Source: Candidatus Bathyarchaeia archaeon (GTDB lineage: Archaea; Thermoproteota; Bathyarchaeia; Bathyarchaeales; Bathycorpusculaceae). Taken from it: a DNA stretch of 64,000 nucleotides. A model generated the notes under the pieces. It searched no databases. It worked only from the letters and a program-made list of their open reading frames with translations, and was not told the origin of the DNA. The DNA is taken from positions 96,001 through 160,000 of the forward strand of contig JAVZNC010000002.1 of assembly GCA_038882955.1 (NCBI GenBank), given 5' to 3'. Below, piece after piece: positions 51,736 through 55,938 of the stretch (position 1 is the first letter of the stretch; each line of letters opens with the position of its first letter). Made by a program: the position numbers and the translations under genes.

Positions 51736-52161
51736 TTATATCCTCCCATCAATTTCTAAGCGTGACTTTTGTCTCACATAAATAACTGGCACACTTATAT
51801 CTCTTAACCTCCTTCTCAACATTCTATCATTCGTGAATACTGGAGTTTTCCATTTGCCGGCAAATCCGACTATGGCATCGTCTGGAGAAGCAAAATTCTC
51901 GCTTGTCTCAATTAATCTGCATTTTTCAGCTAGCTGTAATGCATAAGCCGCTTTTTTACGCATGCTCGGCGCGCCGTGTTCTGTAAGCTTTTCAAGTTCT
52001 TGTCGAACGCTTGAGAGTAAGATTGGCTCAATGTTTGCTTTTAAGAGGCTTCTCAACTCTTCGAAGATATCGATTTTAAATTGAAGAGGCACAAATAGCG
52101 CATTTGAATCTAAAATAACTTTCACCTTCGCTTTTTCCAGCCTATTTTTTTCTTCTGCCAT
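51736..52161 (-). CDS. PIN-domain protein (Fcf1/Utp24-like)
   Basis: ILDSNAL, ELEKL, DDAI and TND..LRRRL. TAATG coupling to the eIF2g stop. Confidence 0.9.
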   Translation of the reverse strand: MAEEKNRLEKAKVKVILDSNALFVPLQFKIDIFEELRSLLKANIEPILLSSVRQELEKLTEHGAPSMRKKAAYALQLAEKCRLIETSENFASPDDAIVGFAGKWKTPVFTNDRMLRRRLRDISVPVIYVRQKSRLEIDGRI

Positions 52162-53411
52162 TAACGCATCGTTCCGTACCCTATTAATCTCCATCTTCCC
52201 GCCATTTTCCTGCTTATTGCAACTCTTGACTCTGGTTGTGCACAAACTGGTCTTGCGAGTTTTAGGGTAACTAAGCCCCTTTTTACAGCGGAGACTTTTC
52301 CAACGGTTACGGCAGCGCCTACATGCAAGAGCAAGGTTTCGTTTAAGCTTATTTCTTCAACCTTCATCAGATCCTTGGTTCCAACAGCCCTTTCGAGGAT
52401 ATGTGTCTCTAATGTTAACTCCGACATCGTTGGCGGAAGCGTGTCGGACTTGCCAACCATGTTACCCGTCAATCCGTCGGCTTTAGAAAATGATGGATCC
52501 AGTAATGTTCCAACGCCGACAAGTCCACCGCAACGGGCTTCATTCACATTTCTTCCGCCGGCATGCAAACTGACAATTTCGCTTAACAGAGAATGGTAAG
52601 CGCTTTTTCCCTCTTTTTCAAGCGCTATTCCAGGTCTTATTTCTATTTCATCTCCAACCTTAAACTTGCCTTGCAAAATTGTTCCTCCAATAACGCCGCC
52701 CTCCAACTTTTCTATGGGTGTGCCAGGCTTGTTTACGTCGAAGGAGCGGACAACATACATTAAGGGGGGCTTTGTTTCGTCTCTTTTCGGTGTTGGTATG
52801 AATTCTTCCATGGCTTGCATGAGAACGTCGATGTTTACTTTTCGCTGGGCTGAAACAGGAATTATTGGAGCATCTTCGGCGATTGTTCCCTTAACAAAGT
52901 TTTTTATCTCCTGATAGCTTTCGCGTGCTCTTTTCTCGTCGACGATGTCTATCTTGTTCTGCACAATTATGATATTTTTCACACCTACAATTTCAGCCGC
53001 CGCTAAATGCTCCCTAGTCTGTGGTTGTGGACAAGGCTCATCCGCCGCTATTACGAGTAGAGCCCCATCCATTATTGCTGCTCCAGAAAGCATTGTTGCC
53101 ATAAGCGCTTCATGCCCGGGAGCATCCACAAAACTGACTGCCCGTATGAAAGTTGTTTTTGACCCGCAGTTTGGACATGTTGTCTGCGTCGTATAGTTTT
53201 TTGGCGGTTCGCATTGTGGACACTTGTATATGGGCATGTCTGCATATCCGAGCTTTATTGTTATACCCCTCTTAAGTTCTTCACTGTGCTTTGAAGCCCA
53301 AACTCCAGTTAATGCTTGTACAAGCGTTGTTTTACCATGGTCAACATGCCCCATGGTACCTATGTTGATCTCGGGCTGTTTTGGTAAACTTGCTTGTTTT
53401 TCTTTGCTCAT
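52161..53411 (-). CDS. eif2g: translation initiation factor aIF2 gamma
   Basis: GHVDHGKT, RGITIKLGY, DAPGHE, PQPQTREH, NKID and WRLIGYG. Confidence 0.98.
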   Translation of the reverse strand: MSKEKQASLPKQPEINIGTMGHVDHGKTTLVQALTGVWASKHSEELKRGITIKLGYADMPIYKCPQCEPPKNYTTQTTCPNCGSKTTFIRAVSFVDAPGHEALMATMLSGAAIMDGALLVIAADEPCPQPQTREHLAAAEIVGVKNIIIVQNKIDIVDEKRARESYQEIKNFVKGTIAEDAPIIPVSAQRKVNIDVLMQAMEEFIPTPKRDETKPPLMYVVRSFDVNKPGTPIEKLEGGVIGGTILQGKFKVGDEIEIRPGIALEKEGKSAYHSLLSEIVSLHAGGRNVNEARCGGLVGVGTLLDPSFSKADGLTGNMVGKSDTLPPTMSELTLETHILERAVGTKDLMKVEEISLNETLLLHVGAAVTVGKVSAVKRGLVTLKLARPVCAQPESRVAISRKMAGRWRLIGYGTMR

Positions 53412-53481
53412 CTGTCCATTTCCCGTAAATTTTACAAACTATTGAAAGTTAACCATGCGTATTAATAAATGTTAATTGACC

Positions 53482-53925
53482 TTAAGGATTGGCAGTTTCC
53501 GCTTTCCGCGTTTTAGTTTCTTTCTTCTCGCGCTTTTTCTTTGCTTTGACCTCTTCGCCCTTCTCTTCCTCTTCTTTTGGAGGTGTCACTATTTTCATGT
53601 TCACCTGCAAAATCTCATCTGTTATAACGTTTCCACGCACGGTTTTTCTCCTTCTCTCTCCTTCTTGTTTAGGGTTAAAACCAATTCCCCCGCTTAAAAT
53701 AACTTGTCGGCGTACTCCACCATGAACGTTTGGCCTCATCGGAAATCCATCCTTGTCTGAACCTCCAGTAATTTGCACCTTCTTTCCTGGCAAGTCCACT
53801 ATAGAACCGTCCACTATTTCCCCTATTTTCCTTCCAATTAACGGGGCTGCTCGGGCTTCTTCAAGTTCAACAACTTTTGATTTTCCAGATTCCGGGTCGG
53901 ATACGATTACTTTGAATTTTGCCAT
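53482..53925 (-). CDS. rps6e: 30S ribosomal protein S6e
   Basis: ITGGSDKDGFPM and GERRRKTVRG. Confidence 0.97.
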   Translation of the reverse strand: MAKFKVIVSDPESGKSKVVELEEARAAPLIGRKIGEIVDGSIVDLPGKKVQITGGSDKDGFPMRPNVHGGVRRQVILSGGIGFNPKQEGERRRKTVRGNVITDEILQVNMKIVTPPKEEEEKGEEVKAKKKREKKETKTRKAETANP

Positions 53926-54047: not shown

Positions 54048-55505
54048 TTATTCCACGTGCACTCTGAATAGGTCTACGTCTTCGCGCATGGCTGGCGTTA
54101 ACTCGAGGAACTCTCTAACTGCACGCTTAATGTCTTTGGATTGCGTCACGTATCTCCCAACAATCACTATGTCCGCCCCTTTTTCCAAAGCTTCTCTAGC
54201 TGTTTCAGGGACAATTCCTCCAGCAACCGCAATTAAAAAGCGTTTATCACCGAAAGTCTGCCGCAATTCTTGAATAAGTTCTAAGCCTATTGTCCTTCCG
54301 CTTTCTTGGTCGATTCCTCTGTGCAGAATGATTACGTCTGGGAACTCTTTAAGCTGTTTAAGTTTCTTTACAGGGTCTTCAACATTCAACATGTCAACGA
54401 ATGCGTATATTCCAAGTCTTTTTGCTTCATGTATGAAGGCATCCAAAGTTTCAACTGGTGCAAGTCCAGCAGCAATTACGGCATCTGCAGTTTCATCATA
54501 GGCTAAGTCAACCTCGACTTTTCCGACGTCTAAAGTCTTCAAATCTGCAATAATAAACACGTCTTTAGCAGTTTCCCGCAAATCACTTATCACTTTTGTA
54601 CCATACCTTTTGATTAACGGAGTCCCAGCCTCAAGTATTATCCTGTCGCTTCGGGGGATCTGAGCCAAAATCCTCTTTGTCCTATCCAAATCAGGTATAT
54701 CAAGTGAAACTTGCACATATGGCGGCCTCCATAGGCGCGGTACTTGGAAACCCATTATGGGATGTTTAGCCCTATCCTTATCATAGAAAAGCTTATCCAA
54801 CGATGGATACTTTGCCAATGCCCTTTTTAACGCAAGCTTTGTTGCACCATAATTATAATGGTACAGCTTACGATAGTCACTTGCTTGCGGATGCACAAAA
54901 GCGCTACAAACAATAACCCAATCATCAATCTTATCCTTAGGAATTAAGCCCTCCTCAACAGCGTCAGCAACAGCCTTCGCCACAGCAAATTGCACGGGAC
55001 CAAAAATCTTGTTTGCATCCTCAAGATTTTTAACAGTAACTTTAGGAACAAGCAGAGTATGCGGCTTAGGCGGAAGGTTAGGCCTTATCACAGCCAAAAG
55101 CGGAGTATGACCCTGCGAAAGATTTGATAAACCAGCAGCAAAAGCCTCGCCAACAGGGCCGTCTTTGTCTCCTATTAAGAGGTCAATGTGCGCCACTTCG
55201 TTGCCTTCCCCCACTAATGCCTCACCAATCAGATATGCATATTTCTTCGGAAACTCAATGGACTCCGACAACAAATTTGTCGACTCTTCCTGCACAACAG
55301 CATCAAAATCGACATTAAACTCCTTAAGCCAAGAATACAACGTGTCTCGGTGAATGTTTAAAATCTTCGCAGTTCCAGAAACTGTAGGCTTTGTCGGCCT
55401 TCCCGCTAAAAGGCTACGCATCTTGACCTCTTTTTTCACAGCGTCTTTGAGAATTTGAATAAATTCTTCCTTTGATCCAGGTTTTCTAACGTCGCGTTCC
55501 GACAT
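54048..55505 (-). CDS. fae-hps: bifunctional formaldehyde-activating enzyme / 3-hexulose-6-phosphate synthase with extra N-terminal HTH domain
   Basis: Fae domain: GEALVGEGNEVAHIDLLIG, GHTPLLAVIRPN, NYGATKLA. HPS domain: EAGTPLIK, ADLKTLDVG, HRGID, AVAGG, IVGR. N-terminal TVSGTAKILNIHRDTLYSWL HTH. ATG 55505 follows GGTGGTGG. Confidence 0.93.
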   Translation of the reverse strand: MSERDVRKPGSKEEFIQILKDAVKKEVKMRSLLAGRPTKPTVSGTAKILNIHRDTLYSWLKEFNVDFDAVVQEESTNLLSESIEFPKKYAYLIGEALVGEGNEVAHIDLLIGDKDGPVGEAFAAGLSNLSQGHTPLLAVIRPNLPPKPHTLLVPKVTVKNLEDANKIFGPVQFAVAKAVADAVEEGLIPKDKIDDWVIVCSAFVHPQASDYRKLYHYNYGATKLALKRALAKYPSLDKLFYDKDRAKHPIMGFQVPRLWRPPYVQVSLDIPDLDRTKRILAQIPRSDRIILEAGTPLIKRYGTKVISDLRETAKDVFIIADLKTLDVGKVEVDLAYDETADAVIAAGLAPVETLDAFIHEAKRLGIYAFVDMLNVEDPVKKLKQLKEFPDVIILHRGIDQESGRTIGLELIQELRQTFGDKRFLIAVAGGIVPETAREALEKGADIVIVGRYVTQSKDIKRAVREFLELTPAMREDVDLFRVHVE

Positions 55506-55636
55506 TCTGCCACCACCGAATACTACCTCATTGCGTAGAGGTATATAAGATTGTCGGAGGGGCATCTTCGCTACAAGCAGATATCGACATTAAGCGAGCA
55601 CGCGCTCCTGCATTATCTTTTTGTTTTTATTTTCTG

Positions 55637-55654
55637 CCGACAACAAACTGTCGG
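55637..55654. promoter_or_regulatory. inverted repeat CCGACA-N6-TGTCGG, candidate operator
   Basis: Upstream of fae-hps. Half-sites recur at 55499, 55552 and 55584, and a near-copy lies at 55265-55283. Confidence 0.5.
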
Positions 55655-55734
55655 GTTTTTAAATTTGCATGATGCTCTTAAATTGGTAAGCCTAAAATAC
55701 TTTGGCGCAATTAAAGGCTAAATTCATATGAGGT

Positions 55735-55938
55735 ATGGCGATGCGGTGGTACGAGGTAGCATGTGTTCTAGCATTCTTTGTTGGTGTAGTTCTGTTTTTG
55801 TATGGGGCAAATTATTATGATGCTCTGGTGGGTTGGACTGGCGTGGCTTTAGTTGTCGGCTCATTTTTTGCCGGAATTTTACTTAAAGTCTATGAAGTTT
55901 TGAGTACTTCCCCTCCAAATATTGCAGATACGGCTTAA
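55735..55938 (+). CDS. small two-TM membrane protein
   Basis: Two hydrophobic helices separated by YGANYYDA..GW.G. The 3' end overlaps the convergent peptidase gene by 56 nt. Confidence 0.65.
   Translation: MAMRWYEVACVLAFFVGVVLFLYGANYYDALVGWTGVALVVGSFFAGILLKVYEVLSTSPPNIADTA

What the first reader, a model, noticed from the sequence alone, without database searches (positions are those of the whole stretch)
54048..55505. HTH-Fae-Hps triple fusion: possible formaldehyde-sensing trigger enzyme
Seen: an ~85-aa N-terminal extension with a Fis-like HTH (TVSGTAKILNIHRDTLYSWLKEF) is fused in frame to apparently intact Fae and HPS domains. Known: Fae-Hps fusions link the reverse RuMP pathway to H4MPT in methanogens, and I do not recall them carrying DNA-binding domains. 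Inference: an enzyme that also regulates transcription in response to formaldehyde, H4MPT or hexulose-6-phosphate, analogous to PutA/BirA/NadR. It also implies H4MPT-based C1 metabolism in this organism.
Basis: partly seen in the sequence, partly recalled or inferred. Interest (0 to 1): 0.7.

Follow-up and report, generated by a model that had tools for sequence, protein, structure and literature searches.

The report
Self-regulating DNA-binding Fae-Hps enzyme
A formaldehyde-handling enzyme of an uncultured archaeon carries a small DNA-binding domain whose likely binding sites are conserved on the enzyme's own promoter, so the enzyme probably controls its own production.

Summary
Window 54048-55505 (- strand) encodes a 485-aa protein with a conserved 70-aa N-terminal helix-turn-helix (HTH) domain, a roughly 20-aa linker, and intact Fae and HPS domains. 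The organism is a Bathyarchaeia MAG. The fusion is widespread: 675 protein clusters, and 127 of 401 sampled Bathyarchaeia genomes, where the domain is always fused.

New evidence supports a regulatory role. The hexamer CCGACA is fixed at set positions around the gene in 35 diverged orthologous loci. It abuts the TATA box in 34/35 and overlaps the start codon as ATGTCGG in 34/35. Further copies lie upstream and inside the coding region, mostly about 53 bp apart. In this genome the box-plus-TATA composite occurs only here.

Sister Bathyarchaeia lineages carry a different N-terminal DNA-binding domain and a different promoter motif:
- **Ribbon-helix-helix:** GTGACAC palindromes, 31/32.
- **A second HTH type:** TTGCGGCA, 2/2.
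- **No extra domain:** neither motif (CCGACA 1/21, GTGACAC 0/21).

One lineage that deleted the HTH has mutated boxes.

Best reading: an autoregulating enzyme-regulator fusion, probably a repressor. Ligand control, DNA binding and the sign of regulation are untested. "Fis-like" and a complete H4MPT pathway are not supported. My literature searches found no description of it.

The parts
54048..55505 (-). HTH-Fae-Hps gene (485 aa plus stop). The true start is the ATG at 55505.
   Evidence: ORF. The start is conserved in 30/30 orthologues. NF009833 scores 583 bits.
55296..55505 (-). N-terminal DNA-binding domain 'HTH-A' (residues 1-70): a long helix followed by a helix-turn-helix. The recognition helix HRDTLY.W..E is invariant.
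   Evidence: Alignments A1 and A2. The AF2 model has helices at 12-34, 42-49 and 53-62. All 50 listed VIA neighbours are HTH DNA-binding domains, Z 4.4-6.1. Profile hits fall on GP3_package and HTH_23 proteins.
55230..55295 (-). Variable linker (residues 71-92) between the HTH and Fae.
   Evidence: These columns are poorly conserved in A1, and pLDDT is below 50 at residues 79-88.
54753..55229 (-). Fae (formaldehyde-activating enzyme) domain.
   Evidence: PF08714 E 6e-71 and TIGR03126 at 257 bits. PDB 1y5y matches at E 4e-43.
54108..54722 (-). 3-hexulose-6-phosphate synthase (OMP-decarboxylase-family) domain.
   Evidence: PF00215 E 1.5e-31. PDB HPS entries 9lj9, 3f4w and 3ajx match.
55552..55557 (-). 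P box: CCGACA 3 nt upstream of the TATA box, at the position where a BRE would sit.
   Evidence: Present at -55..-47 in 34/35 orthologous loci. The composite CCGACA-N2-4-TTAWATA occurs once in the 1.54-Mb genome. It accounts for 28 of 34 matches in 41 related genomes, all at fae-hps.
55542..55548 (-). TATA box TTATATA, 37-43 nt upstream of the ATG.
   Evidence: Conserved in the alignments. Its identification as an archaeal TATA box is an inference.
55499..55504 (-). S box: TGTCGG (an inverted CCGACA) overlapping the start codon as ATGTCGG.
   Evidence: Present in 34/35 loci. The Ser2 codon is TCG in 35/35, against 41 of 354 Ser codons elsewhere in the same genes.
55637..55654 (.). U boxes: an inverted pair CCGACA-N6-TGTCGG in the divergent intergenic region.
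   Evidence: A box lies between -160 and -80 in 31/35 loci, and a forward box at about -105 in 19/35.
55392..55397 (-). C1 box: CCGACA encoding Pro37-Thr38 inside the HTH-coding region.
   Evidence: A forward box lies at +95..+118 in 29/35 loci. Of the Pro-Thr pairs here, 34 of 57 are encoded as CCGACA, against about 8.5% expected from codon usage.
55265..55270 (-). C2 box: TGTCGG in the linker-coding region.
   Evidence: A box lies at +205..+225 (forward) or +230..+240 (reverse) in 27/35 loci, although the linker protein sequence is variable.
55735..55938 (+). Divergently transcribed 67-aa gene with two predicted membrane helices, sharing the intergenic region. It may be co-regulated.
   Evidence: ORF, with no Pfam hit. 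tblastn finds it next to HTH-A fae-hps in 34 of 50 loci and in 0 of 33 RHH/HTH-B loci.

Best explanation
The gene encodes a bifunctional Fae-Hps enzyme that carries its own sequence-specific DNA-binding domain and regulates its own transcription.

Proposed mechanism, as inference: the N-terminal HTH of each subunit recognises one CCGACA hexamer, and the oligomeric enzyme core brings several HTHs together. Fae crystallises with five chains per entry, and OMPDC-type HPS enzymes are dimers by recall (the HPS entries hold 2 to 4 chains). The oligomer would then occupy an array of boxes on one face of the DNA, mostly about 53 bp (five helical turns) apart. The array includes the box abutting the TATA box, the box over the start codon, and boxes upstream and inside the 5' coding region.

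One box overlaps the expected TFB-binding position and another lies just downstream of the expected transcription start. The most likely effect is therefore negative autoregulation.

The enzyme domains sit in the reverse ribulose-monophosphate route, which makes ribulose-5-phosphate and releases formaldehyde. A plausible but untested extension is that substrate or product occupancy changes DNA affinity, as in PutA, BirA or RbkR.
For: 1. The domain is real, conserved and always fused.
- 675 clusters were found.
- 128 matches occur in 127 of 401 Bathyarchaeia genomes, and 125 of them lie in open frames of 477-612 aa.
- No free-standing copy appeared among 1.84 billion representatives; the short hits are fragments of the fusion.

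2. The fold is an HTH. Remote sequence relatives are DNA-binding HTHs of small terminases and HTH_23 repeat proteins.

3. CCGACA is the top-ranked hexamer in the 200 nt upstream of 35 non-redundant orthologues: 35/35 loci, 74 copies, ahead of TATATA at 32/35.
- There are 184 boxes, or 5.26 per 680 nt, against 0.19 expected from the genome rate.
- Positions are fixed: P 34/35, S 34/35, upstream 31/35, C1 29/35, C2 27/35.

4. Selection acts at the nucleotide level. Ser2 is TCG in 35/35 loci, against a background of 11.6%. Pro-Thr pairs are encoded as CCGACA in 34 of 57 cases.

5. The sites are specific to this promoter.
- CCGACA is not enriched genome-wide (422 observed, 543 expected).
- The box-plus-TATA composite is unique in the genome.
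- The only intergenic cluster of boxes is here.
- In 41 related genomes, 28 of 34 composite matches sit at fae-hps, while a reversed-pattern control gives 12 matches.

6. The motif co-varies with the domain type.
- CCGACA: 35/35 HTH-A, 0/32 RHH, 1/21 plain loci.
- GTGACAC: 0/35, 31/32, 0/21.
- The two HTH-B loci carry TTGCGGCA next to the TATA box.
- The RHH identity is supported by ParD and CopG matches: PDB 3kxe E 4e-5, Pfam ParD_antitoxin in 14/14 members.

7. A natural deletion shows box decay. G159, nested within the HTH-A clade, lacks residues ~13-85. Its boxes read CCGGCA and ATGTCAGG.

8. Spacing peaks at 51-54 bp (49 adjacent pairs) in HTH-A loci. In RHH loci it is 51-52 bp (16 loci) or 62-63 bp (9 loci).
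Against: - No DNA-binding, expression or enzyme data exist, and no RNA run was listed for this sequence.
- The HTH assignment rests on sub-threshold Pfam hits (E 1e-3 to 7e-3, below gathering) and weak structural scores: best Foldseek E 0.5 and best VIA Z 6.1, which that tool's own notes say can be a common arrangement.
- Co-variation shows an association between domain type and motif. It does not show physical contact, and a separate lineage-specific factor could in principle track the same clades. The loci are related, so the counts overstate independence.
- The domain-deletion case is a single genome.
- The HTH-B class has only 2 members.
- One RHH locus (L084) has a different palindrome although its N-terminal strand sequence is the same.
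- In RHH loci the main operator lies 13-15 nt upstream of the TATA box. That position is also compatible with activation, so the sign of regulation is uncertain.
- The partner gene phi has no CCGACA box, so there is no pathway-wide regulon.
- Nothing bears on ligand sensing, and the N-terminal domain has no conserved cysteine.
Confidence: 0.75

Rival explanations
1. The CCGACA boxes are real regulatory sites but are bound by a separate transcription factor. The fused N-terminal domain would then do something else, such as oligomer assembly, RNA or general nucleic-acid binding, or protein docking.
For: Direct contact is not shown. The HTH-family assignment is statistically weak. HTH-like three-helix bundles can serve as protein-interaction modules (general knowledge).
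Against: - A separate factor would have to switch three times in step with the fused domain type: CCGACA, GTGACAC and TTGCGGCA.
- It would also have to decay when the fused domain is deleted.
- The recognition helix is invariant across a clade in which the box is invariant.
- The composite site occurs essentially only at this gene, which fits a dedicated, physically linked regulator.
Confidence: 0.12
2. The conserved inverted pair, CCGACA at -52 and TGTCGG at +1, acts at the RNA level as a stem that sequesters the start codon.
For: RNAalifold on 14 orthologous promoters finds exactly this 6-bp pairing. The window's own -65..+26 segment folds better than shuffles, z -3.2.
Against: - The pairing shows no covariation, since all columns are invariant, and it is worth only -6.15 kcal/mol with a roughly 50-nt loop.
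- The -52 box lies upstream of the TATA box, so it would not be in a transcript started from that promoter (inference).
- The upstream and intragenic boxes are mostly in direct orientation and cannot pair.
- The window's stable fold uses different, non-conserved partners.
- Rfam finds nothing in the region.
Confidence: 0.04
3. The protein binds its own promoter but acts as an activator, or as a constitutive autoregulator with no metabolite input. In that case it is not a ligand-sensing trigger enzyme.
For: In RHH-type loci the main palindrome lies 13-15 nt upstream of the TATA box, a position used by archaeal activators (general knowledge). No evidence of ligand control was obtained.
Against: In HTH-A loci one box abuts the TATA box and another covers the start codon. 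In HTH-B loci the box lies directly downstream of the TATA box. Both arrangements are typical of archaeal repressors (general knowledge). Known enzyme-regulator fusions such as RbkR are ligand-modulated (abstract of PMC5397151).
Confidence: 0.3

Closest known systems
Canonical archaeal bifunctional Fae/Hps (NCBIfam NF009833, ~392 aa)
   Same: The enzyme core is the same. NF009833 matches residues 111-504 of the 505-aa frame at 583 bits, and the Fae and OMPdecase Pfam domains are in the same order.
   Different: The canonical model has no N-terminal domain. This protein adds a 70-aa HTH plus a linker. Public records label these proteins only 'bifunctional Fae/Hps'.
RbkR, the archaeal riboflavin kinase/regulator (PMC5397151; abstract and section list read)
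   Same: It is an archaeal enzyme fused to a DNA-binding HTH-like domain. Its operators were predicted by comparative genomics, vary between lineages and include its own gene (abstract).
   Different: The enzyme family, DNA-binding domain type (winged HTH) and operators all differ. RbkR controls a multi-gene regulon and its ligand control (CTP, FMN) is shown experimentally. Here the target seems to be the gene itself and nothing has been tested at the bench.
PutA, BirA and NadR (bacterial trigger enzymes; properties recalled, not taken from a call)
   Same: Each is one polypeptide with catalytic and operator-binding functions. PutA uses an N-terminal ribbon-helix-helix domain and represses its own operon, which parallels the RHH-Fae-Hps sister form found here.
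   Different: The enzymes and domains are unrelated, and those proteins are bacterial. Their ligand or redox switching is shown, whereas none is shown here.
HxlR, the formaldehyde-responsive activator of the hps-phi operon in Bacillus subtilis (recalled)
   Same: It provides dedicated transcriptional control of a hexulose-phosphate synthase gene.
   Different: HxlR is a separate winged-HTH protein that senses formaldehyde chemically. Here the DNA-binding domain is part of the enzyme, and phi has no box.
Fis / NtrC-type HTH (Pfam HTH_8)
   Same: The layout is a short three-helix domain with a C-terminal helix-turn-helix. NtrC1/NtrC4 and Fis DNA-binding domains appear among the weak sequence and structure neighbours.
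   Different: There is no HTH_8 Pfam hit, and the PDB profile E-values are about 1. Closer profile relatives are GP3_package small-terminase HTHs.

Membership tests
Bifunctional Fae/Hps (NF009833; Pfam Fae PF08714 + OMPdecase PF00215) | Full-length match above the curated cut-offs, with domains in the order Fae then HPS | tested here: met
   NF009833 scores 583 bits (cut-off 274). Fae scores 238 bits (cut-off 27) and OMPdecase 110 bits (cut-off 27).
Bifunctional Fae/Hps (NF009833; Pfam Fae PF08714 + OMPdecase PF00215) | Catalytic activity: formaldehyde plus H4MPT condensation, and hexulose-6-phosphate synthase/lyase | not testable with these tools
   The core is 86% mean column identity across 39 orthologues with many invariant positions. 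No residue-level or bench test was done.
Helix-turn-helix DNA-binding domains (generic tri-helical HTH) | Three helices, the last two forming a helix-turn-helix | tested here: met
   The AF2 model has helices at 12-34, 42-49 and 53-62 with pLDDT 75.8 alone, and block means of 80-87 over most of the domain within the full-length model.
Helix-turn-helix DNA-binding domains (generic tri-helical HTH) | Significant sequence or structure match to a curated HTH family | tested here: inconclusive
   Pfam HTH_28/29/23 hits have E 1e-3 to 7e-3, below gathering. The A2 profile hits GP3_package and HTH_23 proteins at E 1e-11 to 1e-3 in 1.84 billion proteins. All 50 listed VIA neighbours are HTH domains, but Z is at most 6.1. 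The best Foldseek E is 0.5.
Helix-turn-helix DNA-binding domains (generic tri-helical HTH) | Binds DNA | not testable with these tools
   This is inferred only from conserved, co-varying promoter boxes.
Fis/NtrC HTH_8 (PF02954) | Match to the HTH_8 model | tested here: not met
   HTH_8 is not among the 17 families reported at E <= 1. Only E of about 1 was obtained against NtrC-family chains in the PDB.
Trigger enzymes / enzyme-regulator fusions (PutA, BirA, NadR, RbkR) | Catalytic domain and DNA-binding domain in one polypeptide | tested here: met
Trigger enzymes / enzyme-regulator fusions (PutA, BirA, NadR, RbkR) | Specific operator sites at its own gene or its pathway genes | tested here: met
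   The evidence is comparative only: position-fixed boxes, genome-unique composite, and co-variation with the domain type.
Trigger enzymes / enzyme-regulator fusions (PutA, BirA, NadR, RbkR) | DNA binding switched by substrate, product or cofactor | not testable with these tools
   No data were obtained.
Ribbon-helix-helix (CopG/Arc/MetJ, ParD) - sister form of Fae-Hps, not the window's protein | Profile match to RHH families and structures | tested here: met
   The A4 profile hits ParD 3kxe at E 4e-5, and also 7b22, 8c24 and CopG-family 5ceg. Pfam ParD_antitoxin matches 14/14 members and RHH_1 9/14.

The most novel reading that the evidence does not exclude
The oligomeric Fae-Hps core acts as a scaffold that presents several exchangeable N-terminal DNA-binding modules: HTH-A, HTH-B or ribbon-helix-helix, each with its own co-evolved operator. 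It would wrap 250-350 bp of its own promoter and 5' coding DNA through sites phased at about 52-53 bp (or 62-63 bp). This would form an enzyme-built repressor complex whose assembly on DNA reports flux through the reverse ribulose-monophosphate / formaldehyde node. Two unrelated DNA-binding folds show the same roughly 52-bp site spacing, so the enzyme's quaternary structure, rather than the DNA-binding domain, would set the operator geometry.
Probability: 0.3. Interest if true: 0.85.

Novelty: new variant of a known kind. Interest (0 to 1): 0.76.

Why it matters
**A testable archaeal regulator.** Transcriptional regulation in uncultured archaea is almost unknown, and few archaeal enzyme-regulator fusions have been described. 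This finding supplies a predicted regulator, its operator sequence, the operator layout, and three natural "domain-swap" variants with matching operators. All of these can be tested in vitro with synthetic DNA and recombinant protein, without cultivating Bathyarchaeia.

**Central metabolism.** The finding places autoregulation on the enzyme that makes pentose phosphate and detoxifies the formaldehyde released. That is a central node in an abundant sediment lineage.

**Annotation.** It shows that proteins labelled plainly "Fae/Hps" in public databases hide at least three regulator-fusion architectures.

**Structural hypothesis.** The shared ~52-bp phasing suggests how an enzyme oligomer could organise DNA.

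Tried and rejected
**Leads that were followed and dropped**
- A free-standing copy of the N-domain seemed present in G025. It turned out to be the same gene cut by a contig end.
- The upstream ATG at 55565 (505-aa form) was rejected. Its extra residues are not conserved and lie upstream of the TATA box.
- The idea that CCGACA is a general promoter element (BRE) of this lineage was rejected. The hexamer is not enriched genome-wide, and the box-plus-TATA composite is unique in the genome.
- The other three clusters of three or more boxes in the genome lie inside coding regions and were taken as chance.
- The phi promoter has no box.

**Searches that found nothing or added little**
- Foldseek against the PDB gave no significant match for the N-domain (best E 0.5).
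- The PDB profile search with A1 gave only E of about 1.
- More HTH-B loci were sought in genome contigs (none), in metagenome contigs (none) and in 401 class genomes (only the 2 known plus one weak unrelated hit).
- More natural domain-loss cases were sought in five family genomes lacking the N-domain. At E <= 1e-40 none of the five shows a Fae-Hps gene; two match only over the Fae domain, so the deletion case stays at n = 1.
- RNA evidence: no RNA holder was listed for window 54048-55800, and read laying was therefore not used.
- Rfam found nothing in 55150-55800.

**Literature searches**
- 'formaldehyde-activating enzyme' + 'ribbon-helix-helix': 0 papers.
- 'fae-hps' + 'helix-turn-helix': 1 paper, judged unrelated from its title and abstract start only (search listing).
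- 'fae hps' + 'dna-binding domain': 0 papers.
- 'bathyarchaeota' + 'fae' + 'hexulose': 13 papers (12 listed), none read beyond the listing except PMC11237513. Passages of that paper were read; it mentions Fae/Hps only as a known fusion.
- Subscription journals and supplements were not searchable, so prior description cannot be excluded.

**Tree caveat**
The tree is a quick search with midpoint rooting and some long branches. It supports clustering of the domain types but not an order of gains and losses.
Full report
**What is there**

On the - strand an ORF runs from 55565 to 54048. Pfam and NCBIfam place a complete bifunctional Fae/Hps enzyme in residues 111-504 of the 505-aa frame. NF009833 scores 583 bits against a cut-off of 274. 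Fae has E 6e-71 and the OMPdecase family E 1.5e-31.

Related loci carry titles naming Candidatus Bathyarchaeia/Bathyarchaeota MAGs. The window is G000:C2:96001-160000 of a 1.54-Mb assembly that is 95.6% complete.

**Start codon and conservation**

Thirty species-level orthologues all begin with MS, followed by a conserved (K/R)(K/R)P, at the position of the ATG at 55505. Twenty-two columns are invariant, including P40 T41. S43 G44. A46.. L49 N50. H52 R53 D54 T55 L56 Y57. W59.. E62.

The 20 codons upstream of 55505 are not conserved, and they lie upstream of the conserved TATA box.

A search with residues 1-112 alone found 675 proteins at E <= 0.01. All 120 listed carry Fae plus OMPdecase domains, and with the query itself the 121 sequences are 479-527 aa long, 88 of them 485 aa. 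Where a source names them, they are called only "bifunctional Fae/Hps".

In a sample of 401 Bathyarchaeia genomes the domain matched 128 times in 127 genomes. Of these, 125 matches lie in open frames of 477-612 aa, that is, in the fusion.

A profile search of 1.84 billion representative proteins found no free-standing homologue. The short hits are fragments or frameshifted pieces of the same fusion. One apparent stand-alone copy is a gene cut by a contig end.

**Fold of the extension**

AlphaFold2 on 28 sequences predicts a long helix (12-34) followed by a helix-turn-helix (42-49, 53-62), with pLDDT 75.8. The same elements have pLDDT 80-87 within the full-length model, followed by a low-confidence linker.

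- Pfam gives only sub-threshold HTH_28/29/23 hits and no HTH_8.
- The alignment profile reaches phage small-terminase proteins (GP3_package) and multi-repeat HTH_23 proteins. Their HTHs read very similarly to this one.
- Foldseek finds nothing significant.
- An exhaustive VIA search lists 50 neighbours, all HTH DNA-binding domains (sigma-70 region 4, TetR, AraC-type, NtrC1). All have Z of at most 6.1, which is weak.

The domain is therefore a tri-helical HTH. The label "Fis-like" is not established.

**A conserved DNA box at the gene's own promoter**

I aligned the 5' regions of 35 non-redundant orthologous loci on the start codon. The regions are otherwise unalignable, yet one hexamer, CCGACA, appears at fixed places:
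- Directly upstream of the TATA box at -55..-47, in 34/35 loci.
- Inverted over the start codon as ATGTCGG, in 34/35.
- At least one copy between -160 and -80, in 31/35, with a forward copy near -105 in 19/35.
- In the codons of the conserved Pro-Thr pairs at +95..+118, in 29/35.
- In the variable linker-coding region at about +210 to +235, in 27/35.

It is the top-ranked hexamer upstream (35/35 loci, 74 copies), ahead of TATATA. There are 184 boxes in all, or 5.26 per 680 nt, against 0.19 expected from the genome rate.

Codon usage shows selection on the DNA itself. Ser2 is TCG in 35/35 loci, whereas TCG makes up 41 of 354 Ser codons elsewhere in the same genes. Of 57 Pro-Thr pairs in the KPTKPT stretch, 34 are encoded CCGACA, against about 8.5% expected.

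Adjacent boxes are most often 51-54 bp apart (49 pairs) or 105-107 bp apart (28 pairs). That corresponds to five or ten helical turns.

**Specificity of the box**

- In the window's genome CCGACA is not enriched (422 observed, 543 expected).
- The composite CCGACA-N2-4-TTAWATA occurs once in that genome, at this promoter.
- The only intergenic cluster of boxes is here. The window holds six copies within 55265-55654.
- Across 41 related genomes the composite matches 34 times. Of these, 28 are immediately upstream of that genome's fae-hps. A reversed-pattern control gives 12 matches, so the six other hits are at chance level.
- The partner gene phi, present at C2:91024-91596, has no box upstream.

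**Co-variation across Bathyarchaeia**

A class-level search found Fae-Hps in 76 of 151 genomes. I fetched 40 loci. Two were further HTH-A forms, and I classified the other 38:
- 14 carry a different N-terminal extension. It matches ribbon-helix-helix proteins: ParD 3kxe at E 4e-5, Pfam ParD_antitoxin in 14/14 members and RHH_1 in 9/14.
- 2 carry a second HTH type, HTH-B.
- 21 have no extension.
- 1 has an HTH-A with its core deleted.

RHH-Fae-Hps forms 77 clusters of about 448 aa in the protein database. It is found in 31 genome loci with Bathyarchaeia-type titles, two of which are binned under bacterial names.

Motif counts in the 200 nt upstream, by class:

| Motif | HTH-A | RHH | No extension |
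|---|---|---|---|
| CCGACA | 35/35 | 0/32 | 1/21 |
| GTGACAC | 0/35 | 31/32 | 0/21 |

RHH promoters carry a GTGACAC-N5-6-GTCACA palindrome 13-15 nt upstream of the TATA box. They also carry a second GTGACACA 51-52 bp (16 loci) or 62-63 bp (9 loci) further upstream.

The two HTH-B promoters carry TTGCGGCA directly after the TATA box, with further copies upstream. HTH-B was seen in only 2 of 401 genomes.

The deletion variant (G159) is nested inside the HTH-A clade on a tree of the enzyme core, with SH-aLRT support of 98-100. Its boxes are each one substitution away from the consensus: CCGGCA next to the TATA box, and ATGTCAGG at the start.

On the same tree, HTH-A forms one clade and HTH-B forms a pair among plain forms. 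RHH forms mostly one clade of 19 plus three rows of uncertain place. Six changes are needed, against 36.8 in shuffles. The tree was a quick search with midpoint rooting, so it does not order gains and losses.

**Interpretation**

Three unrelated or diverged DNA-binding modules sit at the same end of the same enzyme. Each is paired with its own promoter motif, and the motif decays where the module is lost. The simplest reading is that the fused module binds the promoter of its own gene.

In HTH-A loci one box overlaps the place where TFB would contact DNA. Another lies just downstream of the expected start of transcription. This favours repression, which is an inference from general knowledge of archaeal promoters.

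The boxes are single hexamers in mixed orientation, phased at about 53 bp. Two different DNA-binding folds show about 52-bp spacing. The oligomeric enzyme core may therefore set the geometry. Fae crystallises with five chains per entry, and the HPS entries listed hold two to four chains. The oligomeric states themselves are recalled, not tested.

Whether substrates change DNA binding is unknown.

**Rival readings**

- A separate factor binding the boxes would have to track the domain type three times.
- An RNA stem between the -52 and +1 boxes is the only consensus pairing found. It has no covariation and is worth -6.15 kcal/mol. One arm lies upstream of the TATA box.
- Rfam finds nothing in the region.

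The genome has Ftr (2 copies) and three Fae domains. Mch, Mtd and Mer were not found with the models used. A full H4MPT methyl branch is therefore not shown for this 95.6%-complete genome.

**Novelty**

Full-text searches for Fae or Fae-Hps together with ribbon-helix-helix, helix-turn-helix or DNA-binding domain found nothing relevant.

The closest described archaeal case is RbkR, a riboflavin kinase fused to a winged HTH with experimentally shown ligand control (abstract). The kind, an enzyme-regulator fusion, is known. This enzyme, its operators, the exchange of DNA-binding modules and the phased site array appear not to be described in the library I could search.

**Limits**

- All evidence is computational and comparative.
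- The loci are related, so the counts are not independent.
- The deletion case is n = 1 and HTH-B is n = 2.
- No RNA data were available.

Noticed in passing
window 55735-55938 (+): A 67-aa ORF with two predicted membrane helices is transcribed divergently from fae-hps. It has its own conserved TATA-containing upstream element. It is found next to HTH-A fae-hps in 34 of 50 loci and in none of 33 RHH/HTH-B loci, and it has no Pfam family. It may be co-regulated through the upstream CCGACA boxes.
   Followed up: partly
G000:C4:153084-154577 (L051 2084-3577, -) and G000:C9:2718-4259 (L052, -): The same genome holds two paralogous fusions of a DHDPS/DapA-family domain with a C-terminal Fae domain (497 and 513 aa; Pfam DHDPS E 3e-83, Fae E 1e-63). 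Each lies next to a similar 259-265-aa gene that I did not identify. The two near-duplicate loci may reflect two strains in the bin, which has 6% contamination.
   Followed up: partly
own genome G000 (whole): Ftr is present in two copies and PHI is present. Mch, F420-dependent Mtd and Mer were not found with Pfam/TIGRFAM models, although the genome has three Fae domains. The fate of methylene-H4MPT in this organism is unclear.
   Followed up: partly
protein P0133 (153 aa, from the representative library): In one protein the HTH-A domain is followed by a non-Fae sequence with no Pfam match. This could be another architecture or a chimeric or truncated contig.
   Followed up: no
L084 (G107:C6, 5' end of its RHH-type fae-hps): This RHH-type locus lacks GTGACAC. 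It has a different perfect palindrome (GTGGTAC-N4-GTACCAC) next to its TATA box, although its N-terminal strand sequence is like that of the other RHH forms.
   Followed up: no
PDB entry 8ub7 chain B: A solved 290-aa protein named 'Avd' matches the Fae domain at E 1.5e-42 over its residues 127-286. This is a Fae-like domain in a protein with a quite different name.
   Followed up: no
HTH-A and RHH promoters: The HTH-A box (CCGACA) and the RHH half-site (GTGACA) share the four bases GACA. This could be chance, or a trace of an ancestral operator kept through a swap of the DNA-binding domain.
   Followed up: no
window 51736-53925 (-): Downstream of fae-hps on the same strand lie three ORFs that look, from their translations alone, like ribosomal protein S6e, aIF2-gamma and a PIN-like domain gene (not checked against any family library). 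The first starts 122 nt after the fae-hps stop. Co-transcription was not examined.
   Followed up: no
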